Translations under genes and position numbers: made by a program
Notes under the pieces: model-generated
Databases searched by the model: none
Seen by the model: the letters and a program-made list of their open reading frames with translations, nothing else
Told to the model about the DNA's origin: nothing
Virus record (IMG/VR): IMGVR_UViG_641509434_000001
Coordinates: 1 to 64,000 of that record
Reading direction: 5' to 3' (one strand)
DNA: 64,000 nt
Origin: a virus
Lineage: Duplodnaviria > Caudoviricetes
In this document: in pieces, positions 18,945 to 35,427 of the stretch
Layout of the letters: each line of letters begins with the position of its first letter
How positions within the stretch are numbered: the first letter of the stretch is position 1

Positions 18945-20072
18945 GTGGAAGATAATGATTACTGGTTGATAGAAAATTCCCCTTTTATAGATTTTCCTAA
19001 GATAATGAGTAAAGATTGGATAATTGGAGTATTGATTACTGGACGCAATCAAGGAAAAACATTTGGTTGGTGGCATTATTTTTATAAAGCTGCATTTCCT
19101 ACTAGAGAGGCATTTTGGAATGGTGAAATACATGAAAAGTTTGGTTCTATAGTAGGTAATCTACTAGAAGTAACTACTACAGATATGCAAAAATCAGCAG
19201 AAGATGTGCTGATGCCATATCTTGAAACAGGTCAGCAGGTTGAATTAGTTGTTCGAAAAGCTCAATGCTATTTGAGAATAATTTCTATCAATAATAAAGG
19301 CTTTAAAGAAGTATACTATGAACAAGTCATAGGAGTATATGCTTCTTTATCTCAACCTAATACAATGCGCCGTATTGGTGAACAAGGTATTACACTTGTT
19401 CTTATTGAGGAGTGCAACCCTGAAAAGGAAAATCATCCATTCGTAGGTAATGATACTTCTAAACTTTCATCTATCATAAAATCTATTACAAAAGGTAATG
19501 AAGATGAAAAACCAGTACGTATCCTCGCTATTGGTAACCAACAACTATTCCCATCAACAGTTCTTAAGTTTCTTAAGTTTGACGAAAATGACTTAGGTCT
19601 TAAAGATGGTCGATTATTCTTAATGGTTGACAGGCCTAAGGGGTTTAAGAAGAAATATGAAACTCTTATCTCAGATAATAGTGACTATGATAACTTTTCT
19701 AAACGTAAGTTAAATGATATTACTGAGCTAAAAGCTAAAAAAGAAACATATATTGAAAAATTTAAAGAAGTTCAACCAACAGTGTTTATTACAAACAACC
19801 AAGGAGTTTCTGTTGCTGGTTGGGTAACTCGCTTTGAAGGACGAGATGTACTATTTACAGTTTCTGATATTAAAGACTTATCAGAGTTCAGTGATAGTCT
19901 TGCTTATGAATTAAGTCCATTTACAGCAGAACGTAAACGGTTTGCTATGCAGTTGGATATAGTAAGAAAGTACTACTATATGAACTCAGTTGTTGTAGGT
20001 AAAGACGACCGAGATACTTATTATAGTTTGAACACTCTTGGATGTATTCCAAGCAAGAAAAGAGGAATTTAA
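18945..20072 (+). CDS. phi29 gp16-like DNA packaging ATPase
   Basis: N-terminal Walker A ITGRNQGKT, Walker B VLIEE; size and context. Confidence 0.7.
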   Translation: MEDNDYWLIENSPFIDFPKIMSKDWIIGVLITGRNQGKTFGWWHYFYKAAFPTREAFWNGEIHEKFGSIVGNLLEVTTTDMQKSAEDVLMPYLETGQQVELVVRKAQCYLRIISINNKGFKEVYYEQVIGVYASLSQPNTMRRIGEQGITLVLIEECNPEKENHPFVGNDTSKLSSIIKSITKGNEDEKPVRILAIGNQQLFPSTVLKFLKFDENDLGLKDGRLFLMVDRPKGFKKKYETLISDNSDYDNFSKRKLNDITELKAKKETYIEKFKEVQPTVFITNNQGVSVAGWVTRFEGRDVLFTVSDIKDLSEFSDSLAYELSPFTAERKRFAMQLDIVRKYYYMNSVVVGKDDRDTYYSLNTLGCIPSKKRGI

Positions 20073-20611
20073 TGAAATTAGATTATACAGTAAATTCTTT
20101 GAATGAAATAAAATCTAGTCGTCAAGGTGGAGTATTTAGTAGCATTCCTGACAAACCTTCAATTAAACGAAGTGAGCTAGGTGTTCCTTCAAATTTGCAA
20201 AAAGCAACTATGACTACTAAAGCAACATCATCAAACATGACGATGAAACAAAGAGTAGGGTCTAGCCATGTAGAAAATTCTATTGCTGTAATGACATCGG
20301 ATAAGTCTCAAAGAAATTCAATAAGAAACTTTGGATGGAACCCATATTCTAAGGCTGACTTAGCATTACAAAAAGTAAGAAAGAATTTAAGTAACACAGA
20401 TAGATTGGACTTTGTATCTAAATCTATTCACAACACTGCTTTCCAAAACCTTACTCCTCAAGATAAACAAAACATTCAAAAGATTGCTTACAATGAGGAT
20501 GCGGTTGCTAATATGCAGGCACAGAAAGCTGATACGCCAACTGTGCAAGGTAATATCAAACAACCAAGAAATACTCAACAAAATCAACAAGGAGCAAATC
20601 AAAATGGATAA
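20072..20611 (+). CDS. putative virion protein with DYxV leader and SRQGG motif
   Basis: MKLDYTVNSLNEIKSSRQGG; TAATG coupling. Confidence 0.75.
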   Translation: MKLDYTVNSLNEIKSSRQGGVFSSIPDKPSIKRSELGVPSNLQKATMTTKATSSNMTMKQRVGSSHVENSIAVMTSDKSQRNSIRNFGWNPYSKADLALQKVRKNLSNTDRLDFVSKSIHNTAFQNLTPQDKQNIQKIAYNEDAVANMQAQKADTPTVQGNIKQPRNTQQNQQGANQNG

Positions 20612-21245
20612 CAACTATCAAGTAGATATTAATGCAAATGTAACTAATGGTTCTTCTCGTATGGGTGGTAAATTTGGTGAAACAATTGCTAGACAGCTTA
20701 ATAAAAGCAATGAAAAAACTAAAGCACGACGTGATGCTTGGTCTAAGAAAAACCCACAACAAGCTAAATACATGCATGACCGTGGTAAATCAATCATTAC
20801 GCCAGGTGAACGAGCAGTTAAAGCTGGTGTAGGAGTTGCTATGGGAGCAGCTGGTGCTGTAGCATCAAATGCTATTAAAACTTCTTTAAACAAGAAAGTC
20901 AATGACAAACTTGATGAAGAAGGTGTCACAAATAAGTATGAACGAGACATGATCAACTCAACAGTTAATGGAGCAGTAACTTCTGCAACTAAAACTATTC
21001 CGCAAGGAATTAAAACTATGCGTGGTGGTTCTCGTCTTGGTGCAATTGGTCAAGGACTTATTGGTCGTGTTTATGACAAAAACTCTGAAATCTTTGTTAA
21101 TGGTTTGTCACCAGAACAGTTATCAATCCTGTTGAAAATCATTCCAGAGACAGACATGGATGCTTTACATGAAGCTATTCCTGGTTCAGAAGGTCATGAA
21201 CTTGCTTATATTCCAGTACAAACATTGAATACAATGGGGTTATAA
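20604..21245 (+). CDS. putative virion protein with leader, SRMGG/SRLGA motifs and Gly/Ala hydrophobic segment
   Basis: AAGGAG RBS; MDNNYQVDINANVTNGSSRMGG. Confidence 0.75.
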   Translation: MDNNYQVDINANVTNGSSRMGGKFGETIARQLNKSNEKTKARRDAWSKKNPQQAKYMHDRGKSIITPGERAVKAGVGVAMGAAGAVASNAIKTSLNKKVNDKLDEEGVTNKYERDMINSTVNGAVTSATKTIPQGIKTMRGGSRLGAIGQGLIGRVYDKNSEIFVNGLSPEQLSILLKIIPETDMDALHEAIPGSEGHELAYIPVQTLNTMGL

Positions 21246-21246
21246 T

Positions 21247-22341
21247 ATGAGCAAATATGATTATACAGTAGATATCAATAATGAATTGGTAGAAGAAGGA
21301 CGTCAAGGTAGTTCTAAAACTAGATTACTAGTAGGAGCTGCAGCAGGTGGACTTGCTGTTAATGCTCTTGCAGGTGGTGCTAGTAAGGTCGACAAACATA
21401 TTGAAAGTGAATTTCATCATCCTGACAACCGTCAAGGTGGTTTTGGAGACTTCTTAGGTGGCATCAGGGGAATTGACCCAATTGCTGGCTTTAAAGGTGA
21501 CTACAGTGGAGCTAAACAAGCATCTAAGTCTAGTAACTATCTTAAAGCAAATAAGAGTAGAGCCAACAACTTAAATGTTGACTTGAACCCAAGTGGTACC
21601 TTAGGTGGACCTACTACACAACAAGACTGGAAAGATGCTGACCAAATGACTAACTTAGCTCAAACTGGTCAACGTCGTAGATTGCAAACTAATACTGGTC
21701 GTACTGCTACACAAGGACAAGCTAATGTAGATAATGCAAACATTCAATCACAAGTAGGTGCACAAAATGCACTAAATAATTACAATTCTACTAGTACATT
21801 GAATAATACAAATATACAAAATGCACAACTTGGCTTTGATTCTACAAATTATAGAAACACTGCCAATAGTAATATCGCAAGTAATAACTACGATTCTACT
21901 ACTGCCCAAAATTCTGCTAAAGCTGCTGGAGCTATGAACTCTGCAGGTGTTGATATGTTTAAACAAGTCGCATCTGCTTATGATCCAAATGCTGTTGGTA
22001 CAGATGGTGTTGCTGGTGGAGCATTACCAGACATTACTTCTGCTCTTGAGAAAGGTGCAAATGCACAAACTCAACTTGCACAATCTAATGCTAATGCTCT
22101 TGGTACACGTAACTCTGCATACAACTTGGCAGAATCAAGTAATGCTGTAGCCTATGGTGGAATGAATAGTGATATCCAAAGTGCTAATACTGGTACAGCT
22201 AAAGCATACGGAACTATGAATTCTATAAATAGTGCTCACAACACATACTTAGCTAATGCTCAAACAGGTGCTATCCAAGGTAATCTTAACAATGCCTTGC
22301 AAGGATATGACCTTGATGATTCATATAACTATGGTAAATAA
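21247..22341 (+). CDS. putative internal virion/ejection protein with leader and GRQGS/NRQGG motifs
   Basis: MSKYDYTVDINNELVEEGRQGS; N/A/Q-rich helical body. Confidence 0.75.
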   Translation: MSKYDYTVDINNELVEEGRQGSSKTRLLVGAAAGGLAVNALAGGASKVDKHIESEFHHPDNRQGGFGDFLGGIRGIDPIAGFKGDYSGAKQASKSSNYLKANKSRANNLNVDLNPSGTLGGPTTQQDWKDADQMTNLAQTGQRRRLQTNTGRTATQGQANVDNANIQSQVGAQNALNNYNSTSTLNNTNIQNAQLGFDSTNYRNTANSNIASNNYDSTTAQNSAKAAGAMNSAGVDMFKQVASAYDPNAVGTDGVAGGALPDITSALEKGANAQTQLAQSNANALGTRNSAYNLAESSNAVAYGGMNSDIQSANTGTAKAYGTMNSINSAHNTYLANAQTGAIQGNLNNALQGYDLDDSYNYGK

Positions 22342-22380
22342 TAGTTATAACTAATAATATACTTATGAGGAGAGTTCATA

Positions 22381-22836: not shown

Positions 22837-22838
22837 TT

Positions 22839-23243
22839 ATGCCTAGTTACTTAACATCAAAAACATTTCCACAAAAATTACAACTTACACCAGATGAAAT
22901 TTATGACATCATCAATGCGCCAATGAAAGAAATGGAAAAATCTGACTTACTCAGTAATGACCAATCTATGATTGACTTAATTGTTGAAACTATGCCACCT
23001 AACTTATCAATGGAACTTTCTCGTGACATTAGTAAAATTCGTGACTTATTCCAACAACTTGTTGAAGATGATGAACGTTATGCTAAACTTGTAAAAGAAG
23101 CAGCATCTCGTGTAGGCTCAGTACGTGAAGCTACTAGAGAAGAAGAAGATGAAGCACAGCAAAAACTTCGCGAAAGTGAAAATATGCAGAAGAAAGCTGA
23201 GGAATTACTGGAGAATGCTCGTAAAGCACGGGAGGGTAAATGA
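22839..23243 (+). CDS. coiled-coil protein
   Basis: GGAGG RBS; ends ...KAREGK. Confidence 0.7.
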   Translation: MPSYLTSKTFPQKLQLTPDEIYDIINAPMKEMEKSDLLSNDQSMIDLIVETMPPNLSMELSRDISKIRDLFQQLVEDDERYAKLVKEAASRVGSVREATREEEDEAQQKLRESENMQKKAEELLENARKAREGK

Positions 23244-23908
23244 TGAACCCAAGATTAGACAGTAAATTTCGTGAAGAACTTCGCCACATGACTCCGAAGA
23301 CTGCTTTGCTTACACACTTAATGGACTATTGGACATCAGAAATCAAGCCCAACTTAGACGATTTTTCCACTATTGGCAAGGAAGTCAAGGTTGTAGGAAA
23401 CAACACTGAAGATTACATCATCCTACATGATGATGGTGTAGTCTTAATTGGGCAAATTGATTACTGCCACTATGGTCCCTTCAATGGATTCTCAAGTGGA
23501 CCTCTTACTCCTCGTCAATTGAGTATTGGTATTGATGTACTCAACAATCCTCGTATTATTCAGTTGATGAATCAGCAAGAAAAACGTAACAAGAAACGAG
23601 TAATTGCAACTACTCTTCCTATAGATTCTATTAATGTTGTAACACGTACGATTATTTCAGGTAACTACAGTTTTCCTATTTCAAATGTTGAAATTGATCA
23701 AGATTCTAAAACATTCATTATCAAAACATTGAAATCACGAGACAACAAACTTTACCAAGATTATCAATTAATTGAAAATATTATGCCTAAGGAGATTATT
23801 ATAGATGAATCCCACAATAGACTTTCTAGTGTCGATTCAGGAGAGTTACAAAATTCCGCTAACAGCATCGGAAATGACCCTACTGAAGACACTCATTCAA
23901 AAGACTGA
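23240..23908 (+). CDS. hypothetical protein
   Basis: GGAGG RBS, 222 aa. Confidence 0.7.
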   Translation: MMNPRLDSKFREELRHMTPKTALLTHLMDYWTSEIKPNLDDFSTIGKEVKVVGNNTEDYIILHDDGVVLIGQIDYCHYGPFNGFSSGPLTPRQLSIGIDVLNNPRIIQLMNQQEKRNKKRVIATTLPIDSINVVTRTIISGNYSFPISNVEIDQDSKTFIIKTLKSRDNKLYQDYQLIENIMPKEIIIDESHNRLSSVDSGELQNSANSIGNDPTEDTHSKD

Positions 23909-24353
23909 TTCTCCTAAAATATTTGACGCACCAGAAGAGTTTGAATTCTTAATTGGAACAGCTGGTGTGGGATATGCTAAAATAAAACAAAGTAGTGATA
24001 AAGGACTATTTGAAGAAGCTCCTCTATCTGGAGTAACTCGTGATGGTTGGGCAAAAACCGGTGGAAAATATAGTTCACCACTTAATGTTGCAACATCATT
24101 GTCTTATTTCTACAATTACTTGAAATACAAGTATGAACAACCTATTTTAGATGTAAGTCCCTATGGTCATCTTCCTAATCATCCTTTAAATTTGTTTATA
24201 AAGAACAACAGCCCCATTGTTAATATTCTACCTGAAGTCATTACTGACTATGTAGAGTATAATAAGTGGTCAATTCTTACAGTGGATAAAACTTACAAAG
24301 CATACATTCCTGTGGAAGATACTAGTAGGAAGGATATAATGGACATCGAATGA
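23805..24353 (+). CDS. hypothetical protein
   Basis: AAGGAG RBS; ~100-nt overlap with the upstream ORF. Confidence 0.65.
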   Translation: MNPTIDFLVSIQESYKIPLTASEMTLLKTLIQKTDSPKIFDAPEEFEFLIGTAGVGYAKIKQSSDKGLFEEAPLSGVTRDGWAKTGGKYSSPLNVATSLSYFYNYLKYKYEQPILDVSPYGHLPNHPLNLFIKNNSPIVNILPEVITDYVEYNKWSILTVDKTYKAYIPVEDTSRKDIMDIE

Positions 24354-25309
24354 CATTTTTAGAAACTGATGCCAGAGAAGTCATTGAAACTTTTACAAAT
24401 CAGAATCTACATAGATTTTATAATATGCTTCCAACTATGATTACTTGGGAGTGTGCTAACAAAGACCCAGACTATAGATTATCTTCAATGCAAGTTGAAA
24501 AGAATTTACGACTAGGTACAGGTCTTTGTGTACTAGGTAGAGATATTGCAAATAACTTTACTTACTTATCTGACAACTTAACTCGCCCATTTCCTGGTAT
24601 TGTCCCTCTTTGTGAGTGGAAACCAGAAAATATGACAATCGCTGGTGCAGAAAACCCAGGTGCACCTCTTATCATTGTGACAAATCAAACTCCAATGATA
24701 TCTCAAAGACTAGCTATGGATATTAGACGTGGTATCATATCAGGTCTATCTTCTGACCTTGCAGCTATTAGAATTGCAAGTGAAGAAATTGGAACTTTAC
24801 AGTACTTACGTTATGCTAATGCAACTCAATTGAACAGACAAGCATTTATCTCTGGTCCATCCAAAGAAGCAGTTCGTGATACTCAAGAACAAATTCAAAG
24901 TTTATCTCCATTTGTAGGAATTGTAACTACTGATGAAACATCTACTAATGCTAGCAATTTTGTAGAAGGCTCAATTACATCTCAGTCAATCAACAGTGTT
25001 GACAGAATGCAATCCTTTACGCAACAAATGGACTCAATTGAAAGAAACTTACTTACTCAGTTAGGTGTTCCTACAATGGAAACTTCTAATGAACGACGTG
25101 TTCAAGCAGAAGTTGAAGCACTTAAGTCTGAACCTCAAGTATATGCAGCAACTTATCAAAAACCTCGAGAAGAATCAGCTCGTCTTATTCTAGAATCTGA
25201 AGGTTACGAAGTTAAGCCTGTATTTACAATGTCATGGCAACAACCAATGTATCCAGGTAGCTCTGCTCTTATGGGACTTGGTCAGTTACCAATGAATCCA
25301 GTTCAATAG
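24350..25309 (+). CDS. portal/connector (phi29 gp10-like upper collar)
   Basis: LLTQLGVPTMETSNERRVQAEV resembles the connector LT.LGI.....KKER...EV motif; 319 aa. Confidence 0.7.
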   Translation: MTFLETDAREVIETFTNQNLHRFYNMLPTMITWECANKDPDYRLSSMQVEKNLRLGTGLCVLGRDIANNFTYLSDNLTRPFPGIVPLCEWKPENMTIAGAENPGAPLIIVTNQTPMISQRLAMDIRRGIISGLSSDLAAIRIASEEIGTLQYLRYANATQLNRQAFISGPSKEAVRDTQEQIQSLSPFVGIVTTDETSTNASNFVEGSITSQSINSVDRMQSFTQQMDSIERNLLTQLGVPTMETSNERRVQAEVEALKSEPQVYAATYQKPREESARLILESEGYEVKPVFTMSWQQPMYPGSSALMGLGQLPMNPVQ

Positions 25310-25389
25310 AAAAAGGGTATTATGACACTAATAATTGCTGGTAGAGACCCAACGTCATTACTAGAATATCTAGAGAAAGGAGAAATTTC

Positions 25390-25572
25390 ATGAACAAGTT
25401 TGATTTTACAGTTTATGCAAAAATCAAAGCTAAACGTGATGAAGCAGTGAAAGATTTGCGAAAAATTAACTTATCAACAGATAAGTCTGTGGATAGAACT
25501 GCTGAAATCTCTGCTATTACTAGCTTAATTTCTGCACTTAATGCTCAACTGCAGGAGATTGTATATGGCTAA
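25390..25572 (+). CDS. small protein with DFTV N-terminus
   Basis: AAGGAG RBS; MNKFDFTVY. Confidence 0.65.
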   Translation: MNKFDFTVYAKIKAKRDEAVKDLRKINLSTDKSVDRTAEISAITSLISALNAQLQEIVYG

Positions 25573-25975
25573 TTTAGATTACTCTGTAGATATACAAGGA
25601 ATAATGACAAAGGATGCTTTGAGTAGAGAAGGTGCCACACTATCTGGCATTGCTCAAGCAGGTAAAGCAGCTTACAAAAAGACACCCGAAATGTTAAATA
25701 AAGCCAAAGGAATGGCTTATGAAAATGTTCCATTTGCTAAAAAAGTAGGTAACTTATCAAAATCTAAAGTAGGCTTAGGAGCAGGTATGACAGCTTTGGC
25801 TGTTGCACCTGTTGCTATTAGTGCTGCTGATTCTGCAACAAGAGTCAGCGATTATGCACCTTATGCTGGAGCATCACAGCCTATGCAAACTGACATTTCT
25901 GCATTAACAAACAATAATACAAACGATGCATACTCTGTAAATACCTCTGGTATTACAAATGCAACTTATCACTAA
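25565..25975 (+). CDS. putative virion protein with leader and SREGA motif
   Basis: GGAG RBS; MANLDYSVDIQGIMTKDALSREGA. Confidence 0.75.
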   Translation: MANLDYSVDIQGIMTKDALSREGATLSGIAQAGKAAYKKTPEMLNKAKGMAYENVPFAKKVGNLSKSKVGLGAGMTALAVAPVAISAADSATRVSDYAPYAGASQPMQTDISALTNNNTNDAYSVNTSGITNATYH

Positions 25976-25996
25976 AATAATAGGAGAAATTCAATA

Positions 25997-26710
25997 ATGA
26001 ACGAATTTGAACAAGGTGTTGAATACACTGATGACAACTTAGTAACTATGGTCCAAGAAGACCAAGCTGCAGTGGAAGCTGCTGCTGGTGGAACTGATAA
26101 AGACTTCGTAGCAGACACAACTGAAGGAGCTAATCCAGAAGGACTCATCGACGAAGATGGTGAAGTAATTCCTGAAGGTGGAGCTCGTGAAGGTGGAGTA
26201 GTAGGCGACTATGCTAAAGCTCAAGGTAAAGCACAAGTAAATGGTGCTATCCACCCATTGAAATCTAAACGTGCTAAAGCCCAAACTAAAGAAGACCGTT
26301 ATGCTAATGGGGAAAACGTTGTAAGTCGTAATGTACGCCCTTACTCTACTTCAGAACTTAACAAACAAGCTGACCTTGTAAGTAAGAAACCTGGCTATGG
26401 TCGTGAAGGTGCAAGTGAAGTAATGGCTCTTGGTGCTAATGGTCGTCCAATTCTTGACGTAACACCTAAAGCTGGTATGTCAGGTAAAGCTAAAGCAGGT
26501 ATTGCTGCTGGTATTGGCGCTGCTGCTGCAGGAGTTGGAGCTGCTGCTTATGCTAAACGCAAACGTGATGAACGTAAAGGCGGAGATGAAGAAATGATTG
26601 AAGAACCATTTGTAGAATCAGCACCAGTAGACTTTAGTGACCCAGTTGAAGCTAACTATGGATCTATTCAAGCCGCTGTCGGTTACGCAATGCAAGACCA
26701 CCGTTTATAA
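25997..26710 (+). CDS. scaffold-like protein with AREGG/GREGA/ERKGG motifs
   Basis: Acidic termini and Gly/Ala segment; immediately upstream of the capsid gene. Confidence 0.65.
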   Translation: MNEFEQGVEYTDDNLVTMVQEDQAAVEAAAGGTDKDFVADTTEGANPEGLIDEDGEVIPEGGAREGGVVGDYAKAQGKAQVNGAIHPLKSKRAKAQTKEDRYANGENVVSRNVRPYSTSELNKQADLVSKKPGYGREGASEVMALGANGRPILDVTPKAGMSGKAKAGIAAGIGAAAAGVGAAAYAKRKRDERKGGDEEMIEEPFVESAPVDFSDPVEANYGSIQAAVGYAMQDHRL

Positions 26711-26813: not shown

Positions 26814-28148
26814 ATGCCATCAATTTCATCAATCGGAGCTGGTTCACAAGCTTCTATCGCACATTCAACTGCTAATGCAAACATCCAATCAGACTGGACT
26901 GATGCATTGTTAATGACACAACATAGCAAACTCTATGTTGACTATGGTTCAAACATGAACCCATTGTCTGACTTCGTTACTCACAACGATACTCAATTCG
27001 GTGGTTTCATCCAAATGTTCGGTCTTAACTTGGCTACTGCTCACTACGCAAACAGCCCATCTAAGATCCGTGACGTAAACCCTGCTGTCCTTGAATCTCC
27101 AAGTATCATTGCAGAAATCGTTAAGAAAGAACGTTCTGCTAAATTCTTGCTTTCAATCGACGAATCAGAAGTTATCAAAATCAACTCTTCACCAGCTGAA
27201 GAAGCTGCCTTCATTGAAGCCAACGTTGCTAACTTGTACAAATCTAACTCATATGACGAATACTTCCACCTTGGTGGTATCTTGCTTGAGTCTGTAACTG
27301 GTCACGTATTCAACGTACAACTTATCAAAGATCCAGCTAAATCTGATGCTGTTGCATTCAAACAAGTAGCTAAATCACTTAATGTGGCTGCTGCTGAAAT
27401 GCTCTTGCCAACTGCAAACTACAACCCTTACGGACGTATTGTTGCAACTGACTCTGTTGATAACCTCCGCTTCATCACTACACCTGGTACTCAATTTGAA
27501 GTTAATGCTTGGCTTGCTGACCGTTACCACAAAACACTTGTTGACATGGGTGTCCAAACTACATTGGTTACTGAAGACCTCTTCGCTGAACGTTGGATCT
27601 ATGCTACTGCACACACTGCAACTGCACAAGACTTCACTGTTCAAGCTGACAGTACTCGTTGGTTAGACCCATTCACATTCGCTGTTAATGATGTTATCCC
27701 TGCTGGTTCATACGCTATGCCAGGTGCTGAAGGAGCTGTCCCAGTTGTTTCAGAAGCTGATGCTAAACGTTTCGTAGGAGCATTGTTAGACGAACGTGCA
27801 TTTGGTCTCCGTGACCGTATCCCTGCTGCATTGTACCCAGAACGTTCAAATCGTGGTTTGGTATCAAACATCTGGTTGCAAGTACGTCAATGGGCTTACT
27901 CAACAGGTCTTGTTAATACTCTTGCATTCTATGCAGAGTTGGATGCAGAACCTAAACTTACAGGTGCGGGTACATGGGTAGACGGTACAGATAATCGTAC
28001 TATCTTGTTCGATGCATCTGCTGTATCTGGTGTTAAAGTAGGTGACTACGTAACATTCACAGTTGATAGTAAAGAAGTTGTCGGCTCAGTAGCTAAAGTT
28101 GACGGTGCCAACTCTTACGCTACAGTAGCAATTGGTCTTAACAAATAG
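26814..28148 (+). CDS. major capsid protein (phi29 gp8-like)
   Basis: NPLSDF...FGGFIQ N-terminal pattern; strongly biased high-expression codons (TTC, ATC, AAC, TAC); 444 aa. Confidence 0.8.
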   Translation: MPSISSIGAGSQASIAHSTANANIQSDWTDALLMTQHSKLYVDYGSNMNPLSDFVTHNDTQFGGFIQMFGLNLATAHYANSPSKIRDVNPAVLESPSIIAEIVKKERSAKFLLSIDESEVIKINSSPAEEAAFIEANVANLYKSNSYDEYFHLGGILLESVTGHVFNVQLIKDPAKSDAVAFKQVAKSLNVAAAEMLLPTANYNPYGRIVATDSVDNLRFITTPGTQFEVNAWLADRYHKTLVDMGVQTTLVTEDLFAERWIYATAHTATAQDFTVQADSTRWLDPFTFAVNDVIPAGSYAMPGAEGAVPVVSEADAKRFVGALLDERAFGLRDRIPAALYPERSNRGLVSNIWLQVRQWAYSTGLVNTLAFYAELDAEPKLTGAGTWVDGTDNRTILFDASAVSGVKVGDYVTFTVDSKEVVGSVAKVDGANSYATVAIGLNK

Positions 28149-28161
28149 ACCTAAAAGAGCT

Positions 28162-28252: not shown

Positions 28253-28465
28253 ATGACATATAGCCCATTTGAGTCATTGAACTCAGACAGAATTACAGAT
28301 ACAAAAGAGGCTGCTGACTATCTTATTGCAGATGTCTTAAACCGCCCTGTAACTTATCCAGAATTTGATAGCAAAGGCAATCCAATTCCAAGTTATCTAG
28401 GTCGTGTTTCAGATAAAATTGTAAATGGTCAGGACCGTGCAGTTAAAGTGAAAGGAATGAAATAA
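28253..28465 (+). CDS. hypothetical protein
   Basis: AAGGAG RBS. Confidence 0.7.
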   Translation: MTYSPFESLNSDRITDTKEAADYLIADVLNRPVTYPEFDSKGNPIPSYLGRVSDKIVNGQDRAVKVKGMK

Positions 28466-28914
28466 TGAATAGATTAGATTATCATGTTGACATCACCAAC
28501 AAAATCGAAAAATGTGATGGTCGTGAAGGAGCCCGTCAAGGTGCTTTAGGTGATGTTAAAGATCAAATGATGATTGCTCAACAACAAGCAATGGCTAAAC
28601 AAAAAGCTGAAGCTCAACAGCAAGCTCAAATTTCTACCATTCGTGCAACACAAGCTGCACAAGATATTCCTGTAATCAATCAACAAGAACAACAAATTAA
28701 TGTTCTTACTCAATCATTGCAAGATGCTCAATCACAAAATATGCAATTACAAGGTGCAGTTCAAGAAGCTACTGCAGTAGCACAAGATGCTCAAGCACAA
28801 GCTGACCAAGCTGCCAATGTTATTAATACAGCTAATGTATTGACACAAATGCAAGCAGAGAACCCAGACTCTCCAGTTATCTTGGCTGCTGCCAATGATG
28901 CTACAGGAGAGTAG
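28465..28914 (+). CDS. Q/A-rich coiled-coil protein with leader and tandem GREGA-RQGA motifs
   Basis: MNRLDYHVDITNKIEKCDGREGARQGA. Confidence 0.75.
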   Translation: MNRLDYHVDITNKIEKCDGREGARQGALGDVKDQMMIAQQQAMAKQKAEAQQQAQISTIRATQAAQDIPVINQQEQQINVLTQSLQDAQSQNMQLQGAVQEATAVAQDAQAQADQAANVINTANVLTQMQAENPDSPVILAAANDATGE

Positions 28915-28926
28915 ATAAGGAGACTT

Positions 28927-29148
28927 ATGGATACTCAATCTTTACTTAAAAGAGACGATAATATCTTTGCTACAACTGGTCTCATTATGAATGAGTTTCA
29001 AGACCCTGATGCTCACAGAAGTGTCTATGAGCGTCATTGTGGTAGGCTTGGTGGGGGCTATGCAGGAAGTGGTAGTGTAACAACTTACGCTACTGAAGCA
29101 AGTCCTTGTCAAGACATTATTGATTTCGTTATGAAAGGTGGCATGTAA
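28927..29148 (+). CDS. small protein with GRLGG motif
   Basis: AAGGAG RBS. Confidence 0.65.
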   Translation: MDTQSLLKRDDNIFATTGLIMNEFQDPDAHRSVYERHCGRLGGGYAGSGSVTTYATEASPCQDIIDFVMKGGM

Positions 29149-29196
29149 TATGTCATCTGGAGAGAAACTATAAGAAAGAAATAAAGAAGGAAATTA

Positions 29197-30060
29197 ATGT
29201 TGATTACAGCAGCAGGTAAAATAGGTGCAGGTAAAAGTGCACTAACTGCCATGTTGGCAGATGTTTTAGATACAAAAGCTATATATGAACCAATTGATGA
29301 CAACCCTCTTCTAGAGAAATTCTATGAAGATAAAGATACTTATGGGTTTGTATTTCAAATAGACATGATTAGTCGTAGATTTGAATTGATTCAACAAGCA
29401 TTACTACAAAATAATTCAGTACTTGATAGATCTATCTTGGAAGATTCAATCTTCTTAGACCAACTATTTCTTGAAGGACATGTGAATAAATATGAACATA
29501 GAGCTTATCACAAATTACTCGACAGAATGATGTTAGAACTAGATGTTCTACCAAAGAAACGACCAGATCTTCTTGTTTATATTGATGTCCCCTTTGATAA
29601 GGAAATTGAGCGTATCAATAAAAGAGCAAGAGCATTTGAGAAAGTATCAGAAGGGACAGAACTCTGGGATTATTTTGCAATGCATTCTAAAATGTATGAC
29701 AAATGGATAAACGAATTTAACGAGTGTCCAGTCTATACAATTGATGCAATGAAATATGACTATGTCGAAAACGAACAAGACCGTATCGAAGTTCTTGAAA
29801 ACATTGTTGCTAAACTTGTAACAATTGGAGCATTAAGCTTTAAAGAAGCCACACTTGCATACTGTAAAATAAATAATGCAGCACCTACAATTGTAGCAAT
29901 AACTTTATATAACAAAATTCAGAAATTGCTTGACGGCAAATATGAATATCACAACTTGGCTAATCTATATGACTTGAACATTCAAACCATAGATAGCTTA
30001 CAAGAACTCATTAGAAAAGAAAACGAAGGTAATAAATGTTCAGTCATATCAAACACATAA
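29197..30060 (+). CDS. deoxynucleoside kinase
   Basis: P-loop AGKIGAGKS, YEP, DRSILED, ERINKRARAFE lid. Confidence 0.9.
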   Translation: MLITAAGKIGAGKSALTAMLADVLDTKAIYEPIDDNPLLEKFYEDKDTYGFVFQIDMISRRFELIQQALLQNNSVLDRSILEDSIFLDQLFLEGHVNKYEHRAYHKLLDRMMLELDVLPKKRPDLLVYIDVPFDKEIERINKRARAFEKVSEGTELWDYFAMHSKMYDKWINEFNECPVYTIDAMKYDYVENEQDRIEVLENIVAKLVTIGALSFKEATLAYCKINNAAPTIVAITLYNKIQKLLDGKYEYHNLANLYDLNIQTIDSLQELIRKENEGNKCSVISNT

Positions 30061-30785
30061 CAAAGCATGAAGTCGCAAATAATATCAAACAATTATTCAC
30101 ACTAAGATATTACAAAGATGGTTTATCAGGATGGACACCACAATCAAGAATTTTGTGGTTAATTGGTCTTGCAGTAATCTTTGTAACTGCTGCTCCACAT
30201 GGGTTTGATTCTATCAATGTAATTGCTACATTGGGAGGTATGATTGGCTTTACTTGTACAATGACTATTACTAATGGTAAATCAGTCAACGGTATCTTAG
30301 GTTTTATTAGTGCGATTCTTATATCAACAGTAGCTATCCATTCAGGTAACTACGCTGATGTATCAATGCAATCAATGTATATCTTATTCTTAGACTTACC
30401 AATTATGTTATTTGGTAACCAATGGTCTCAAGCTAAGATTAAAGCATTTGATATGAACGCTGTAAAACTTATTCTTGCTGTTGCTATCATTGGTTTCAGT
30501 CTTATGTATGTATTAGATACAAGCGTATTTCTTAGTCCACGTCCAATGATTGACTCAATATCAGCTACAACAGGTTTTGTTGGATTATTCTTGATGTTGG
30601 GTAAATACAGAGCTCAATATGTAGCATGGATGCTTGGTTCTGTTATCTCCATTACATTGTGGTTAATGACTGCTTTGCAAGGCGATGCAAACTGGGTAAT
30701 GTTTGCTACATATTGTGTATACATGTCATCATCACTGATTGGAATGTTCTGGTCAGTATGGTCACATCCAGAAAAGGTAAACTAA
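30036..30785 (+). CDS. PnuC-family nucleoside transporter
   Basis: Multi-TM; GKSVNGILG, GNYAD...Q.MY, P.IDS, QY.AW patterns; next to the kinase. Confidence 0.75.
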   Translation: MFSHIKHITKHEVANNIKQLFTLRYYKDGLSGWTPQSRILWLIGLAVIFVTAAPHGFDSINVIATLGGMIGFTCTMTITNGKSVNGILGFISAILISTVAIHSGNYADVSMQSMYILFLDLPIMLFGNQWSQAKIKAFDMNAVKLILAVAIIGFSLMYVLDTSVFLSPRPMIDSISATTGFVGLFLMLGKYRAQYVAWMLGSVISITLWLMTALQGDANWVMFATYCVYMSSSLIGMFWSVWSHPEKVN

Positions 30786-31385
30786 ATGTTCGATAAAGAT
30801 GCAATCAAAAAGGACATGCTTAAACTAGCAGAACAATTTGAAGGACATCCTGTTGACTATGATGCAAAGGATGGTCCTCAATGTGCTGACTTTTCTGCAT
30901 TCCTTATTAAAAATACTACTGGTAAAACTATCTGGGGTAATGCAATTGAAACAGATAACAAAGAAAATATCAACATTATCAATGAAAACCCAAATGTTGA
31001 AGCCAAACATGTTGACCCACATGAAATTGCTGAAGGTGACTTGTTAGTCGAATCTAATAGTAACCCGAAGGTCGGTCACGTTTCTCTTATTGATAAAATT
31101 CATGACGATGGTACAGTAACTGTCTATGAACAAAACTTGGATGGTGATGCTACCGGCCCAAACCCACTGGGTGTACAAAAGCATACTAGAAAGTTAGCTG
31201 ACTTTGATGGCTGGGGTAGAGTAATGGGTGCATTACGTATCGAAGCTATACCTGAAGAGAAACAATGGGTACGCAACCCTAATTCTCGTCGTAACGGGCA
31301 ACTGCAACGTGCGGGTAGCCGACAAGGTGGAGCCTATTCTAGTATCACTAGTCTATATGAACAGTTAGGTATGACGTTTAAGTAA
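30786..31385 (+). CDS. CHAP-family cysteine peptidase with C-terminal SRQGG tail
   Basis: DYD..DGPQCADF, IWGNA, GHVSLI, YEQN. Confidence 0.85.
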   Translation: MFDKDAIKKDMLKLAEQFEGHPVDYDAKDGPQCADFSAFLIKNTTGKTIWGNAIETDNKENINIINENPNVEAKHVDPHEIAEGDLLVESNSNPKVGHVSLIDKIHDDGTVTVYEQNLDGDATGPNPLGVQKHTRKLADFDGWGRVMGALRIEAIPEEKQWVRNPNSRRNGQLQRAGSRQGGAYSSITSLYEQLGMTFK

Positions 31386-31388
31386 TCA

Positions 31389-31440
31389 GGCGGTTATTCT
31401 ATGATTAAGTTCATAGATAAGCGGTATAATTATATTAAAA
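31389..31440 (+). repeat. 52-bp conserved intergenic element, copy A
   Basis: ggcggttattctatgattaagttcatagataagcggtataattatattaaaa. Confidence 0.8.
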
Positions 31441-31473
31441 GAGATACTATAAAATTAAATAGAAAGGAATATA

Positions 31474-32196
31474 ATGTGTGATAAAATAGATGGCTGGAAC
31501 CCAGCCGACATTGAAGCAGGTGGTAATGGAATTGAAGGCTATCAAGCCATGAATGGTATGTATGATTTAACTCATTCAGAAGATAGTGCTCGTGAAGGAG
31601 GTATGTTTCGTAAAGCTAAACATCCTATTCCACAAATACAAGCTGATGAAGATGAGTATATGGACGACTTTAAAGCTTATGAAGACTTTATGTCTAATAA
31701 CGAAAGTGAAGACTCAGAAGGTGGTGCCCGTGAGGGTGGTTTCATTAAAGATGCCACAACTGTTGACTCTAACTCAACTGGTGTAGCTGATACAGTCAAG
31801 AAAGGTGTAGATGCTATTGGAATCGGTAAGATTCCATTTGTAGGCGGAGCTGCTAAATTCATTGCTGGCGATGTGGTAGGTGGACTTGCTGATGATGCAG
31901 TAAATGTTGTAGGACATGGTACTGCTGCAGCTGCAGATGCTATCAAAGGAGATACATCAAAGGCTGCTGGTCAACTTAAATCTGCTGCTATGCCTGCTTT
32001 CAACTTAGGTCTTACTGCTGCTACTGCTGGTGCAGGTGGAGCATTAGCTAAAGGTGGAGCTAAAGCTGCTGGTGCAGCTATGGCTAAGACTGCTGCTAAA
32101 GAACCACTTACATTAGTACAAGCTGGTATGTCTGGCTTACAAGACATTCAAGATAGAAATATTGATCAAAATAATTTACAAGACAATTTAAACTAA
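31474..32196 (+). CDS. putative virion protein with two AREGG motifs and Gly/Ala-rich C-half
   Basis: DSAREGG, EGGAREGG. Confidence 0.7.
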   Translation: MCDKIDGWNPADIEAGGNGIEGYQAMNGMYDLTHSEDSAREGGMFRKAKHPIPQIQADEDEYMDDFKAYEDFMSNNESEDSEGGAREGGFIKDATTVDSNSTGVADTVKKGVDAIGIGKIPFVGGAAKFIAGDVVGGLADDAVNVVGHGTAAAADAIKGDTSKAAGQLKSAAMPAFNLGLTAATAGAGGALAKGGAKAAGAAMAKTAAKEPLTLVQAGMSGLQDIQDRNIDQNNLQDNLN

Positions 32197-32206
32197 AGGA
32201 GTCATT

Positions 32207-32710: not shown

Positions 32711-32726
32711 TAACAAGGAGTAAACT

Positions 32727-33701
32727 ATGGTCAATGTAATTGGAGGTAATGGTTTCTTCCCATTTGGTGGTGCATCTAACCTAGGTACTGGTTATATGTC
32801 ACAGCCTCTTGAGGGAAATCAAGGACCTCATGAACATCTGGCCCATCGTAGATACGAAACTCGTATGACTACGAGAGACTTACTACTTGGGCTTTCAGAC
32901 TATCCTGATAATAGATTATATGTTCCTACTGAAGAACTCTTAGATGAAGTATTTGACCAACTTATCGAGATTACTAGAATTAAACCTCTAGTAGTCTTCA
33001 ATGATAAAGAAATGGACTCACAACTTACATATAAGATTATGGAAGACATATTTGTATTGACTGAAGATAGAGAAATATTAAAAGACACAGCTGGTGCTTG
33101 GTTTAGAATGTTTGCAGCTACTTGGCATAGATATGCTGAGCTGGATGAACAGCATCTAAGACAAATATTCCAAGGTATTTACCGTGATCACGATAGTACT
33201 AGTAATGCACAAAGTAGCTCTAGTGGCGGTAGTACAAGTACTTCTGAAAATACAAGCAAGAACCAATCAACTAATGATGGGCAATCAGATTCTGATAGTA
33301 AGTCAGATTCTGCTTCTGTTGGTACTACTGACTCTGATGCGAAGAACATATTAAGTACTATGCCTCAAGACAAAGTATTTATTAAGGGCGACCCATTAGT
33401 ACAGGATGTAGAGTATGCAGATAATGTAACAATGAATACAAGCCAGGGTAGAGATAACTCTAGTCAGAAATCATCTAACTTATCAGCATCACATGACTGG
33501 TCTTGGAATGGTAGTAGTTCTGGCTCGTATGGTCGCAATGTAGGCTCTAATACTAGTCATAGTAACAACCAATCTCATTCTCAAGGTATGTCACAATCAG
33601 TTTATAACACTTATAGACAATGGCACGACAGCTCTCTTGATATGACAGGTGGTATGTATTACCAACTAGTACGTGCTGGGCTTTGGTCTATGTTCTGTTA
33701 A
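32727..33701 (+). CDS. lower collar protein (phi29 gp11-like)
   Basis: REI..DT...W.....F pattern, S/T/N-rich tract, STMPQ, C-terminal LWSMF. Confidence 0.65.
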   Translation: MVNVIGGNGFFPFGGASNLGTGYMSQPLEGNQGPHEHLAHRRYETRMTTRDLLLGLSDYPDNRLYVPTEELLDEVFDQLIEITRIKPLVVFNDKEMDSQLTYKIMEDIFVLTEDREILKDTAGAWFRMFAATWHRYAELDEQHLRQIFQGIYRDHDSTSNAQSSSSGGSTSTSENTSKNQSTNDGQSDSDSKSDSASVGTTDSDAKNILSTMPQDKVFIKGDPLVQDVEYADNVTMNTSQGRDNSSQKSSNLSASHDWSWNGSSSGSYGRNVGSNTSHSNNQSHSQGMSQSVYNTYRQWHDSSLDMTGGMYYQLVRAGLWSMFC

Positions 33702-33704
33702 TCT

Positions 33705-33756
33705 TGCGGTTAATCTAAGATTAAGTTCCTTGATTATCCGTATAATTATATTAAAA
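33705..33756 (+). repeat. 52-bp conserved intergenic element, copy B
   Basis: tgcggttaatctaagattaagttccttgattatccgtataattatattaaaa. Confidence 0.8.
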
Positions 33757-33772
33757 GATATGGAGAAATTCA

Positions 33773-33961
33773 ATGTCAATTATAGATCCTATTGCAGGAC
33801 AATCTAAGATAACAACAAGTATAAATAATAAAGACAGAGGTTTTAATGTGGAAATGGAGATAAGTGGACTTCCTACTACTAATCTTATTCCATTTAATAC
33901 TAAAGAAGAAAATACACTTAATGGTGTATATAATTTGTCTTTAGCAGATACAGATAAATAG
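33773..33961 (+). CDS. hypothetical protein
   Basis: GGAG RBS. Confidence 0.6.
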   Translation: MSIIDPIAGQSKITTSINNKDRGFNVEMEISGLPTTNLIPFNTKEENTLNGVYNLSLADTDK

Positions 33962-33969
33962 GAGAGAAA

Positions 33970-35076: not shown

Positions 35077-35085
35077 TAGGAGGTA

Positions 35086-35126
35086 GACCGGAATGGTGTA
35101 GCTACGCTCGACTCGTAGCCTGGTCA
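35086..35126 (+). ncRNA. tRNA-like minihelix (acceptor-like stem + T-arm, no anticodon arm)
   Basis: gaccgg-aatggtgta-gctacg/ctcgact/cgtagc-ctggtc-a. Confidence 0.4.
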
Positions 35127-35178
35127 TAATTCTTTACAACAAAAGTAAAGAGTAAAAGAAAGGCTCAAGGAAAACATT

Positions 35179-35427
35179 ATGATTATAAAGAAAAGAATCG
35201 TAACTTCTAGTAAGTATCATTCAAACAACCCAGTAAAACAATTCTCTAGCAATCCTATTGAAGCAGACATCAATGCTAGATTTTTGAATGCTAAAAACAA
35301 TCCTGGAAGTAAACAAGTTGCGTTAGACTATGCTCATAAATTAGCTAAAGCTAATGAATCAGAGCATGAAGTATATGAAACACGTCAAGGTAACTTATGG
35401 AATGACGACAACATAGATATGAGGTAA
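35179..35427 (+). CDS. hypothetical protein with TRQG motif
   Basis: AAGGA RBS. Confidence 0.6.
   Translation: MIIKKRIVTSSKYHSNNPVKQFSSNPIEADINARFLNAKNNPGSKQVALDYAHKLAKANESEHEVYETRQGNLWNDDNIDMR

What the first reader, a model, noticed from the sequence alone, without database searches (positions are those of the whole stretch)
20072..35427. Shared leader peptide and R-x-G cleavage-like motif across many virion-module proteins: candidate cargo-targeting/maturation system
Seen: five otherwise dissimilar proteins start alike: MKLDYTVNSLNEIKSSRQGG (20072), MDNNYQVDINANVTNGSSRMGG (20604), MSKYDYTVDINNELVEEGRQGS (21247), MANLDYSVDIQGIMTKDALSREGA (25565) and MNRLDYHVDITNKIEKCDGREGARQGA (28465). 25390 has the box only (KFDFTV). 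The motif small-R-[EQML]-G-[GAS] recurs internally: SRLGA (20604), NRQGG (21247), AREGG and GREGA (25997), GRLGG (28927), SRQGG (30786), AREGG twice (31474), and the variants AREGK (22839) and TRQGN (35179). Codons differ between copies, so selection is at the peptide level. Established analogies: the T4 internal-protein capsid-targeting sequence removed by the prohead protease, double-glycine (GG/GA/GS) leaders, the FNLD box of class I lantibiotic leaders, and Gly-Gly viral protease sites. phi29-type capsids are not known to need a maturation protease. Inference: a modular address tag plus protease site that loads and then releases cargo or ejection proteins. Some ORFs would be polyproteins.
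Basis: partly seen in the sequence, partly recalled or inferred. Interest (0 to 1): 0.9.

Follow-up and report, generated by a model that had tools for sequence, protein, structure and literature searches.

The report
Shared leader and cut-site code, lactococcal phage
Nine small head-module proteins of a large lactococcal phage with a phi29-type capsid carry a shared Arg-x-Gly-Gly/Ala/Ser boundary motif, and five of them the same short N-terminal tag, which most likely marks them for loading into the head and for cutting into pieces, although neither the cutting nor the enzyme has been shown.

Summary
Five ORFs (20072, 20604, 21247, 25565, 28465) begin with M-x(1-3)-[LYN]-[DN]-Y-x-V-[DN]-[IS], then 7-10 residues, then [SGA]-R-x-G-[GAS]. 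ORF 25390 has the box only.

R[EQML]G[GAS] occurs 14 times in 26 module proteins. Shuffles give a mean of 0.68 and a maximum of 5 in 2000. The other 96 ORFs hold 1, in a doubtful N-terminal extension.

Metagenomic relatives at 47-95% identity keep the box and both sites.

New here: the motif marks module boundaries. Whole segments bounded by it are gained, lost or moved between proteins in relatives. This fits polyprotein-like precursors.

Not shown: cleavage, presence in virions, or the protease. Ten Pfam peptidase families are absent from the 79-kb genome. The only Cys/His hydrolase is the CHAP protein at 30786. By sequence and fold it looks like a cell-wall hydrolase that gained a site plus a C-terminal tail, so cargo is likelier than protease.

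Verdict: a new code for a known principle (T4-type capsid targeting with maturation cleavage) in the phi29 capsid lineage, testable in a cultured phage. The scan has noted shared-leader systems with other codes on other DNA.

The parts
20072..20611 (+). Leader protein 1 (179 aa). Leader is residues 1-20, ending SRQGG (R17, nt 20120-20131). The mature part is 159 aa with pI 10.1.
   Evidence: close homologue P0045 starts at the same Met
20604..21245 (+). Leader protein 2 (213 aa). Leader is residues 1-22, ending SRMGG (nt 20658-20669). Internal tandem site RGGS-RLGA (R144, nt 21033-21044). Predicted pieces: 125 aa (pI 10.3, with a Gly/Ala-rich hydrophobic stretch) and 66 aa (acidic).
   Evidence: the homologue P0050 (57% identity) keeps both sites as SREGG and SRQGA; P0048 and P0049 keep the leader
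21247..22341 (+). Leader protein 3 (364 aa). Leader is residues 1-22, ending GRQGS (nt 21301-21312). Second site NRQGG (R62, nt 21430-21441). Predicted pieces: 43 aa (Gly/Ala-rich, hydrophobic) and 299 aa (rich in N, Q, A and S).
   Evidence: in 8 of 8 homologues (47-100% identity) D5 Y6 V8 D9 I10 N11 G18 R19 G21 R62 G64 are invariant
25390..25572 (+). 60-aa protein with the box only (MNKFDFTV) and no R-x-G site. Role unknown.
25565..25975 (+). Leader protein 4 (136 aa). Leader is residues 1-24, ending SREGA (nt 25625-25636). The mature part is 112 aa with pI 9.4 and a hydrophobic Gly/Ala stretch.
25997..26710 (+). Multi-site precursor without the box (237 aa). Sites: AREGG (R64, nt 26186-26197), GREGA (R136, nt 26402-26413) and RKGG (R193, nt 26573-26584). 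Predicted pieces: acidic 67 aa, basic 72 aa, basic Gly/Ala-rich 57 aa, acidic 41 aa.
   Evidence: residues 64-139 recur, bounded by the same motifs, inside the 28465 homologue P0046 (61% identity over 76 columns, E 3e-25)
28465..28914 (+). Leader protein 5 (149 aa). Leader is residues 1-23, ending GREGA and directly followed by RQGA (nt 28522-28545). The mature part is 122 aa, acidic and rich in Q and A. It is scaffold-like by composition only.
   Evidence: in P0046 a 72-residue cassette sits between the two sites
28927..29148 (+). 73-aa protein with GRLGG (R40, nt 29044-29055).
   Evidence: no homologue search was made
30786..31385 (+). CHAP-domain protein (199 aa). The core is about residues 1-155. 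A disordered linker holds RAGS-RQGG (R179, nt 31320-31331), followed by a 17-residue tail.
   Evidence: Pfam CHAP, 2.5e-9; the only CHAP in the genome; the linker, site and tail are kept in 2 close relatives and absent from the 128-153-aa cores; AF2 pLDDT is below 50 at residues 167-187; the nearest folds are CHAP endolysins
31474..32196 (+). Multi-site precursor (240 aa). Two acidic N-terminal segments each end in AREGG (R40, nt 31591-31602; R86, nt 31729-31740). They are followed by a 151-aa Gly/Ala-rich part.
   Evidence: R86 G88 G89 are invariant in 13 of 13 sequences, and the number of N-terminal segments varies from 1 to 3
24350..25309 (+). Context: upper collar / connector (portal). It has no leader and no site.
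   Evidence: phrog_2038, 2e-7; Pfam Phage_connector, below its cut-off
26814..28148 (+). Context: phi29-type major capsid protein. It has no leader and no site.
   Evidence: phrog_2006, 8e-76

Best explanation
Nine proteins encoded among the head genes are precursors built from modules. Each module ends in [small]-R-x-G-[G/A/S].

Five precursors start with a 20-24-residue, mostly acidic leader. Its box (L-D-Y-x-V-D-I) alternates hydrophobic and polar residues, as a strand would.

Most likely sequence of events:
1. The leader, or in the CHAP protein a C-terminal tail, brings the precursor to the assembling procapsid or to the processing enzyme.
2. An endopeptidase then cuts at or beside the R-x-G-[GAS] motifs.
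3. This frees basic pieces (pI 9.4-10.4), Gly/Ala-rich hydrophobic pieces, a cell-wall hydrolase, and acidic spacer peptides.
4. The freed pieces act as internal head or ejection proteins.

Shown: the motifs, their enrichment, their conservation, and their coincidence with module boundaries in relatives.

Inferred: cleavage, the exact bond, packaging in the head, and the roles of the pieces.

The protease is unidentified. It may be a phage protein of no known family, the CHAP protein, or a host enzyme.
For: 1. Enrichment. The module holds 14 sites against 0.68 expected. The rest of the genome holds 1 against 1.56 expected.

2. Conservation.
- Box and both sites are invariant in 8 of 8 homologues of 21247, down to 47% identity.
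- Both sites are kept in the 57%-identical homologue of 20604.
- R-x-G-G is invariant in 13 of 13 sequences aligned to 31474. This includes three (28-31% identity) whose downstream domain is different.

3. Module boundaries.
- The conserved part of the 31474 family always starts right after R-[EQ]-G-G.
- Ahead of it there are 1, 2 or 3 segments, each ending in the motif.
- P0046 is a 28465-type leader, then a cassette 61% identical to residues 64-139 of 25997, then the 28465 mature part at 71% identity. The cassette sits exactly where this genome has the tandem REGA-RQGA.
- P0018-P0020 share the first 24 residues of 31474 and then REGG, but continue into a domain with no counterpart in this genome.

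4. The leader is always at the very N-terminus. All 7 hits at E<=1e-3 among 1.84 billion representatives match from residue 1, or from residue 7 in one probably over-extended gene call.

5. Context. The genes lie between terminase, portal, capsid and collar genes. The lysis genes are elsewhere, at 46464-48719.

6. The CHAP site lies in a stretch modelled as disordered, between the fold and a short terminal helix.

7. Charge pattern. Leaders and spacers are acidic, and several products are strongly basic. I recall the same for T4 internal proteins.
Against: - There is no direct evidence of cutting or of virion location. The paper that listed this phage's structural proteins is not held.
- No protease was found. 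Ten Pfam peptidase families are absent from all six frames. There are no peptidase families in 55 proteins scanned against Pfam and/or PHROGs. The Cp-1 proteins give no phmmer hit.
- The leader is only moderately better conserved than the rest of the 21247 protein. Identity in the three distant homologues is 0.59 against 0.48, and 60 of 343 windows of equal length do as well or better.
- The CGT bias and the short DNA repeats at sites mean that part of the pattern may come from recombination between modules. Recombination could also produce cassette boundaries at the motif without any cleavage.
- The system was found only in close kin of this phage and not in Weissella phage phiYS61, the nearest capsid relative in GenBank. 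Deep conservation therefore cannot be tested.
Confidence: 0.55

Rival explanations
1. The CHAP protein at 30786 is itself the maturation protease. On this view a papain-like Cys/His fold cuts after Gly-Gly/Ala/Ser and releases itself at its own site.
For: - It is the only Cys/His hydrolase fold recognised in the genome, and it sits among head genes.
- The lysis cassette has its own Amidase_2 enzyme.
- It carries its own site in a disordered linker plus a conserved tail.
- The first-stage note e1-6243343 raised the same idea.
Against: - Its best sequence and fold matches are all peptidoglycan hydrolases: 5udm at 7e-6; 6ist, 8xyf, 5udm, 4olk and 4csh; streptococcal prophage lysins at about 30% identity.
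- About 20 relatives at 51-62% identity are bare 128-153-aa cores without linker, site or tail.
- The leader profile finds no leader outside the close clade.
- So the core exists without the system, and the site looks like an added cargo tag.
- From recalled knowledge, podophages of Gram-positive hosts commonly carry a virion cell-wall hydrolase.
Confidence: 0.15
2. A host (Lactococcus) protease does the cutting, as staphylococcal phage 80alpha uses the host Prp enzyme (recalled). The phage supplies only the sites.
For: - No phage protease was found.
- The control lines of the same searches report Prp, C39, ClpP, S49 and Trypsin_2 families in Lactococcus lactis.
Against: - No cellular protein among 1.84 billion representatives carries the leader at E<=1e-3. 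There is thus no sign of a host substrate family of this kind.
- The sites do not fit the recalled Prp or C39 recognition rules (see Membership tests).
Confidence: 0.2
3. Nothing is cut. R-x-G-[GAS] is a flexible hinge or a binding motif between modules of multi-domain virion proteins, and the box is an assembly contact. The cassette pattern comes from recombination at short shared DNA.
For: - Site DNA shares 21-24-nt repeats of 70-87% identity, and R is CGT in 12 of 15 sites.
- The CHAP site lies in a linker modelled as disordered.
- No protease was found.
Against: - A mere hinge would not need an invariant R and G with a free middle residue across 47-95% identity.
- It would not need a small residue before R in all 14 sites, nor tandem duplicated sites.
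- Unrelated mature domains share leaders that stop exactly at the motif.
Confidence: 0.2
4. The leaders are double-glycine export signals. On this view the small Gly/Ala-rich cationic pieces are bacteriocin-like peptides exported through a host C39-type ABC transporter.
For: - The sites end in GG, GA or GS.
- Several pieces are small, cationic and rich in Gly/Ala.
- The C39 family rings in the Lactococcus lactis control.
Against: - Position -4 is Arg in every site. From recall, double-glycine leaders have hydrophobic residues at -4 and -7.
- Many sites are internal or C-terminal.
- There is no C39 gene in the phage.
- The genes sit among head genes.
Confidence: 0.04

Closest known systems
Phage T4 capsid targeting sequence on internal proteins IPI-III and Alt, removed by prohead protease gp21 (recalled; papers seen only as a search listing)
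   Same: Otherwise unrelated small proteins share a short N-terminal peptide that ends in a conserved putative cleavage motif. Several products are basic. The genes lie with the head genes.
   Different: - The code differs: box L-D-Y-x-V-D-I plus R-x-G-[GAS], instead of a roughly 10-residue tag ending in Leu/Ile-x-Glu.
- There is no Peptidase_S77 gene.
- Sites are also internal and C-terminal, giving multi-piece precursors.
- The capsid is of the phi29 type.
phiKZ / SPN3US-type giant phages, where the prohead protease cuts many head and ejection proteins (abstract starts of PMC5694885, PMC7411985 and PMC10052503 in the listing; motif recalled)
   Same: One motif is used on many head-associated proteins, with propeptides removed from cargo.
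   Different: Those phages have a T4-like protease and Glu-ending sites. Here there is no recognisable protease, and the sites end in Gly-Gly/Ala/Ser.
Adenovirus protease sites (M/I/L)-x-G-G|x and the Gly-Gly-x or Ala-Gly-x polyprotein sites of asfarviruses and poxviruses (recalled)
   Same: The site has small residues at the two last positions. It is used repeatedly on internal, partly basic core proteins and on polyprotein-like precursors of a dsDNA virus particle.
   Different: The fourth-last residue is Arg, not Met, Ile or Leu. No Peptidase_C48-like gene was found. The adenain family itself was not searched. The virus lineage is unrelated.
Double-glycine leaders cut by C39 peptidase domains (recalled)
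   Same: N-terminal leaders of about 20 residues ending in GG, GA or GS.
   Different: Arg at -4 and no hydrophobic pattern at -4, -7, -12 and -15. There are internal and C-terminal sites. There is no C39 gene.
Pneumococcal phage Cp-1, a phi29-like phage with its own maturation protease (title only, in the reference list seen; that ORF 13 is the protease is recalled)
   Same: A phage of the phi29 capsid lineage that processes a head protein.
   Different: The Cp-1 proteins I compared (ORFs 8, 9 and 12-16) give no phmmer hit in this genome at E<=10. There is no Peptidase_Prp match. Here the capsid protein itself has no site.
Other shared-leader systems noted by this scan in large uncultured phages and magroviruses (e1-6065321, e1-6165649, e1-5817233 and others)
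   Same: Many unrelated late proteins start with one short tag read as a capsid-loading and cleavage signal.
   Different: Those use other codes (for example K-x-A), and most have a recognisable head protease. This one is in a cultured phage with a phi29-type capsid, and it has comparative evidence for cassette boundaries.

Membership tests
T4-type capsid targeting sequence / gp21 system | Short N-terminal peptide shared by otherwise unrelated head-associated proteins | tested here: met
   Five full leaders. Pairs of them rank 4, 5, 11, 13 and 16 of 5995 N-terminal pairs. The mature parts are unrelated.
T4-type capsid targeting sequence / gp21 system | Cleavage after Glu in a Leu/Ile-x-Glu motif (recalled definition) | tested here: not met
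   The conserved motif is [small]-R-x-G-[GAS].
T4-type capsid targeting sequence / gp21 system | Prohead protease of family S77, or S78 in HK97-like phages | tested here: not met
   No match to PF03420 or PF04586 at E<=1 in six frames of the 79-kb genome.
T4-type capsid targeting sequence / gp21 system | Tagged proteins are packaged in the head and the tag is removed | not testable with these tools
   This needs virion proteomics. The paper on this phage's structural proteins is not held.
Double-glycine leader / Peptidase_C39 | Leader ends in GG, GA or GS | tested here: met
   All 14 sites do.
Double-glycine leader / Peptidase_C39 | Hydrophobic residues at -4 and -7 of the leader (recalled definition) | tested here: not met
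   Position -4 is Arg in every site. In the five leaders, -7 is K, N, E, D or D (read).
Double-glycine leader / Peptidase_C39 | Cognate C39 peptidase gene | tested here: not met
   PF03412 and PF13529 are absent from the phage. The host was not examined beyond the control line.
Prp / ribosomal protein L27-type leader, as used by phage 80alpha (recalled) | Prp cysteine protease gene, or leader ending in the Phe-Phe-Ala type motif (recalled) | tested here: not met
   No PF04327 match. The box has no such motif. Whether the host enzyme accepts the box was not tested.
Clan CE Gly-Gly-x viral proteases (adenain, Ulp1-like) | Protease of the C48 or C5 type | tested here: inconclusive
   PF02902 is absent.
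CHAP domain (PF05257), for the 30786 protein only | Match over the curated cut-off, with a Cys and a His in conserved blocks | tested here: met
   38 bits against a cut-off of 26 and 39.3 bits. C33 is invariant, and H98 is kept in 12 of the 13 aligned sequences; the exception is the broken P0027.

The most novel reading that the evidence does not exclude
These phages use an adenovirus-like Gly-Gly polyprotein processing system run by a protease of a new kind. That protease is either the CHAP cell-wall-hydrolase fold turned into a self-releasing maturation protease, or a protein of no known family. Internal cargo is encoded as cassettes that can be shuffled between precursors, because each cassette carries its own cut site.
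Probability: 0.15. Interest if true: 0.8.

Novelty: new variant of a known kind. Interest (0 to 1): 0.6.

Why it matters
If the sites are cut, this would be, within what I could search, the first capsid-cargo code in the phi29 capsid lineage. It has a specificity (Arg-x-Gly-Gly/Ala/Ser) unlike the Glu-ending sites of T4-like and phiKZ-like phages, and no known protease. It therefore points to an undescribed maturation enzyme, or to a host enzyme taken over by the phage.

The cassette behaviour suggests how phages can swap internal or ejected proteins without re-evolving the loading and release signals.

The tag could be used to load foreign proteins into a very long capsid. The review PMC11476376 gives 223 x 45 nm for Lactococcus phage KSY1, whose genome length (79,232 bp) equals that of this record.

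That phage has been distributed by a reference collection (passage of PMC3888941), so the idea is directly testable.

Tried and rejected
Relatives' DNA:
- The search for related loci found no relative with the capsid protein (viral), with alignment A1 (viral, metagenome), or with the CHAP alignment A4 (viral, genomes).
None is a leader at an ORF start; one unrelated in-frame match was in L074.
- megablast of 16 kb against GenBank phages gave no match.
- So the gene neighbourhoods of relatives could not be read. All comparative evidence is at the level of single proteins.

Protease hunt:
- Ten Pfam peptidase families were searched in six frames, with no match.
- Pfam and PHROGs scans of 55 proteins gave none. 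ORFs beyond 54.4 kb and ORFs under about 150 aa outside the module were not scanned.
- Sequence search of solved structures with 23240 and 23805 gave only E>=0.09.
- The protein atlas gave nothing usable for 23240 (its own model has pLDDT 0.39) or for 23805.
- Cp-1 proteins against all ORFs gave nothing.

Structure:
- AF2 of the 31474 protein with 13 sequences failed (mean pLDDT 36.7), so no fold search was made.
- I asked complex prediction for the CHAP core with the 21247 leader.

Rejected ideas:
- cis-autoproteolysis by N-to-O shift. The residue after the motif is V, K, I, S, F, T, V, S, R, L, G, A, M or F, not uniformly Ser, Thr or Cys.
- Prepilin-peptidase sites. There is no Glu at +5, and the sites are internal (read; the rule is recalled).
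- The 77232 hit as a sixth locus. It lies in a doubtful N-terminal extension.

Literature:
- 'KSY1' with 'lactococcal phage' gave 16 papers. 'KSY1' with 'protease' gave 18 papers, of which 3 concern phages.
- Passages of PMC11476376, PMC4281155, PMC3888941 and PMC3900856 mention no leader, cleavage motif or protease for this phage. PMC4281155 says its authors could not find a scaffolding gene.
- One search was badly posed (any 2 of 5 terms) and gave irrelevant papers.
- Chopin et al. 2007 (PubMed 17467024) and Martin et al. 1998 (PMC109866) are not held.
- That the 2007 paper identified 14 structural proteins by SDS-PAGE is my recollection of its abstract, not something I saw.
- Supplements are closed. 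The review's supplementary tables may hold HHpred results for these proteins.
- My statement that the system is unreported rests only on these searches.

Full report
WHAT THE WINDOW IS

The window is bases 1-64000 of a 79,232-bp virus record, G000. All long ORFs are on the + strand and G+C is about 35%.

The review PMC11476376 (passages) gives exactly this length for Lactococcus phage KSY1, with matching features: two T7-like RNA polymerase genes, phi29-like capsid, collar and packaging proteins, and two capsid-protein paralogues. I take that as the likely organism and cite the record by its handle.

The region of the finding is the head module:
- 18945: packaging ATPase (phrog_2150)
- 24350: upper collar / connector (phrog_2038)
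- 26814: phi29-type major capsid protein (phrog_2006, 8e-76)
- 32207: Ig-like protein
- 32727: collar or adaptor-like protein
- 33970: capsid paralogue
- 37205: tail spike

The lysis genes are elsewhere: holin 46464, Amidase_2 46815 and CW_7 48072.

Five ORFs start with M-x(1-3)-[LYN]-[DN]-Y-x-V-[DN]-[IS], then 7-10 residues, then [SGA]-R-x-G-[GAS]. ORF 25390 has the box alone. Each leader start has a purine-rich ribosome-binding stretch.

In an unbiased comparison of the first 25 residues of 110 ORFs, leader pairs rank 4, 5, 11, 13 and 16 of 5995. Only three pairs of paralogues rank above them.

R[EQML]G[GAS] is present 14 times in the 26 module proteins. Shuffles give a mean of 0.68 and a maximum of 5 in 2000. 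It is present once in the other 96 ORFs against 1.56 expected. That one hit lies in a doubtful N-terminal extension.

The nine proteins with sites are 20072, 20604, 21247, 25565, 25997, 28465, 28927, 30786 and 31474. The capsid protein, its paralogue, the portal, the collar and the tail proteins have none. One exception under the looser pattern R-x-G-[GAS] is an RYGA in 35432.

There are three tandem sites, and an RKGG in 25997. K in the middle position is legitimate: the second site of the 21247 family reads RKGG in 5 of 8 homologues.

CONSERVATION

Relatives exist only as metagenomic proteins.

- 21247 family. Eight sequences at 47-100% identity keep D5 Y6 V8 D9 I10 N11 G18 R19 G21 and R62 G64 without exception.
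- 20604 family. The homologue at 57% identity keeps the leader and both sites, with different middle residues.
- Leader profile. A profile of the five leaders, run against 1.84 billion representative proteins, found 7 proteins at E<=1e-3. All are kin of four of the five leader proteins, and every match starts at the N-terminus.

So the tag is real, positional, and confined to this clade. It is absent from Weissella phage phiYS61, the nearest capsid relative in GenBank at 22.5% identity.

The leader is better conserved than the average of its protein (0.59 against 0.48 in the distant homologues), but 60 of 343 equal-length windows do as well.

THE MOTIF MARKS MODULE BOUNDARIES (MAIN NEW RESULT)

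1. In 13 sequences aligned to the 31474 protein, R86, G88 and G89 are invariant. In the ten sequences that share the 31474 mature domain, that domain begins directly after the motif.

2. Ahead of the conserved domain, the architecture varies by whole segments:
- this genome has two acidic segments, each ending AREGG;
- P0010 has three, each ending in a motif variant;
- P0011 and P0013-P0017 have one short leader ending RQGG or REGG;
- P0012 has a different leader, then RQGG.

3. P0018-P0020 share that other leader (the first 24 residues of 31474), then REGG, and continue into a domain that has no counterpart in this genome.

4. P0046 starts with a 28465-type leader. It continues with a cassette 61% identical to residues 64-139 of the 25997 protein, bounded on both sides by the motif. 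It ends with the 28465 mature part at 71% identity. In this genome the same place reads REGA-RQGA, two sites back to back, as if the cassette had been lost.

Segments that can be added, removed or moved between precursors, always at the motif, are what one expects if each is released as a separate product.

The rival reading is recombination at short shared DNA without any cutting, and it is not excluded. Site DNA shares 21-24-nt repeats of 70-87% identity, and R is CGT in 12 of 15 sites.

WHAT THE PIECES LOOK LIKE

- Leaders and spacers are acidic. Four of the five leaders have pI 4.2-5.5; the 20072 leader has pI 8.3. The 67-residue head of 25997 has a net charge of -17.
- Several products are strongly basic: 20072 (pI 10.1), 20604 (pI 10.3), 25565 (pI 9.4), and two pieces of 25997 (pI 9.9 and 10.4).
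- Five proteins carry Gly/Ala-rich hydrophobic stretches.
- One product is a CHAP hydrolase.
- The 28465 product is acidic and rich in Q and A.

That these are DNA-associated internal proteins, membrane-active ejection proteins and a scaffold-like protein is inference from composition only. AF2 gave no usable model for 31474.

THE ENZYME IS UNKNOWN

Ten peptidase families are absent from the six-frame translation of the whole genome: S78, S77, ClpP, S49, C39, C39_2, C48, Prp, Trypsin_2 and NlpC/P60. Family scans of 55 proteins found none.

The two unexplained proteins before the portal, 23240 and 23805, gave nothing in solved-structure or atlas searches.

The CHAP protein (30786) is the only Cys/His hydrolase. 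For it as the protease:
- its place among head genes;
- its own RAGS-RQGG site in a stretch modelled as disordered;
- a conserved 17-residue tail.

Against it:
- every close sequence and fold match is a peptidoglycan hydrolase;
- about 20 relatives at 51-62% identity are bare cores without linker, site or tail.

So the site looks like a tag added to a cargo enzyme. I put CHAP-as-protease at 0.15, a host enzyme at 0.2, and leave the rest to an unrecognised phage protein.

COMPARISON WITH KNOWN SYSTEMS

By function this resembles the T4 capsid targeting sequence with gp21, and the wider cargo processing of phiKZ-like phages. It is not a member of these: the motif and the protease families do not match.

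It shares the small-small ending with double-glycine leaders and with adenovirus-type Gly-Gly-x sites. It fails the double-glycine rule on the fourth-last residue, which is Arg in every site, and no C39 or C48 gene is present.

The definitions of those families are recalled, not taken from a tool.

In the held library I found no report of this leader or motif (and passages). The original genome paper could not be read.

The scan has noted shared-leader systems with other codes in other genomes.

VERDICT

The cassette evidence is new. The system is a new variant of a known kind. Confidence that the sites are cut during head maturation is about 0.55. Interest is 0.6.

Noticed in passing
window 29197-30785: A deoxynucleoside/thymidylate-kinase-like gene (phrog_761) and a PnuC-like nicotinamide mononucleotide transporter gene (phrog_1880) sit in the middle of the head module, between site-bearing genes. 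Weissella phage phiYS61 also has an NMN transporter gene just before its capsid genes (L113 5330-6061).
   Followed up: partly
window 31383-31445 and 33699-33761: A 63-nt intergenic element in two copies of 84% identity, each just after a stop codon and before the next gene. It may be a phage promoter or another regulatory element.
   Followed up: no
window 23240-24353: ORFs 23240-23908 and 23805-24353 overlap by 104 nt in different frames. The protein atlas holds the second only from its residue 24, so its real start is probably near 23874. Both proteins remain unexplained.
   Followed up: partly
window 41848-45632: Two consecutive pairs of lactococcal baseplate genes (BppU_N then BppL_N, twice). 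The two BppU_N proteins (41848, 43357) have near-identical N-termini, and the two BppL_N proteins (42765, 44274) have similar ones. A further pair of short ORFs at 41727 and 45721 shares 16 identical N-terminal residues.
   Followed up: no
proteins P0024-P0044: A family of stand-alone 128-153-aa CHAP proteins, 51-62% identical to the core of 30786. They are listed on contigs of up to 70 kb in public assemblies and have no close relative among GenBank phages. Their genomes could not be fetched.
   Followed up: partly
window 15987-18449: The second single-subunit RNA polymerase gene lies directly before the packaging and head genes but has neither the leader nor any R-x-G-[GAS]. If it is a virion enzyme, it is not loaded by this code.
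   Followed up: partly
window 22839-23243: The 134-aa coiled-coil-like protein ends in AREGK, one residue off the motif, at its very C-terminus. Its stop codon overlaps the start of 23240. No evidence was found that this is a site.
   Followed up: no
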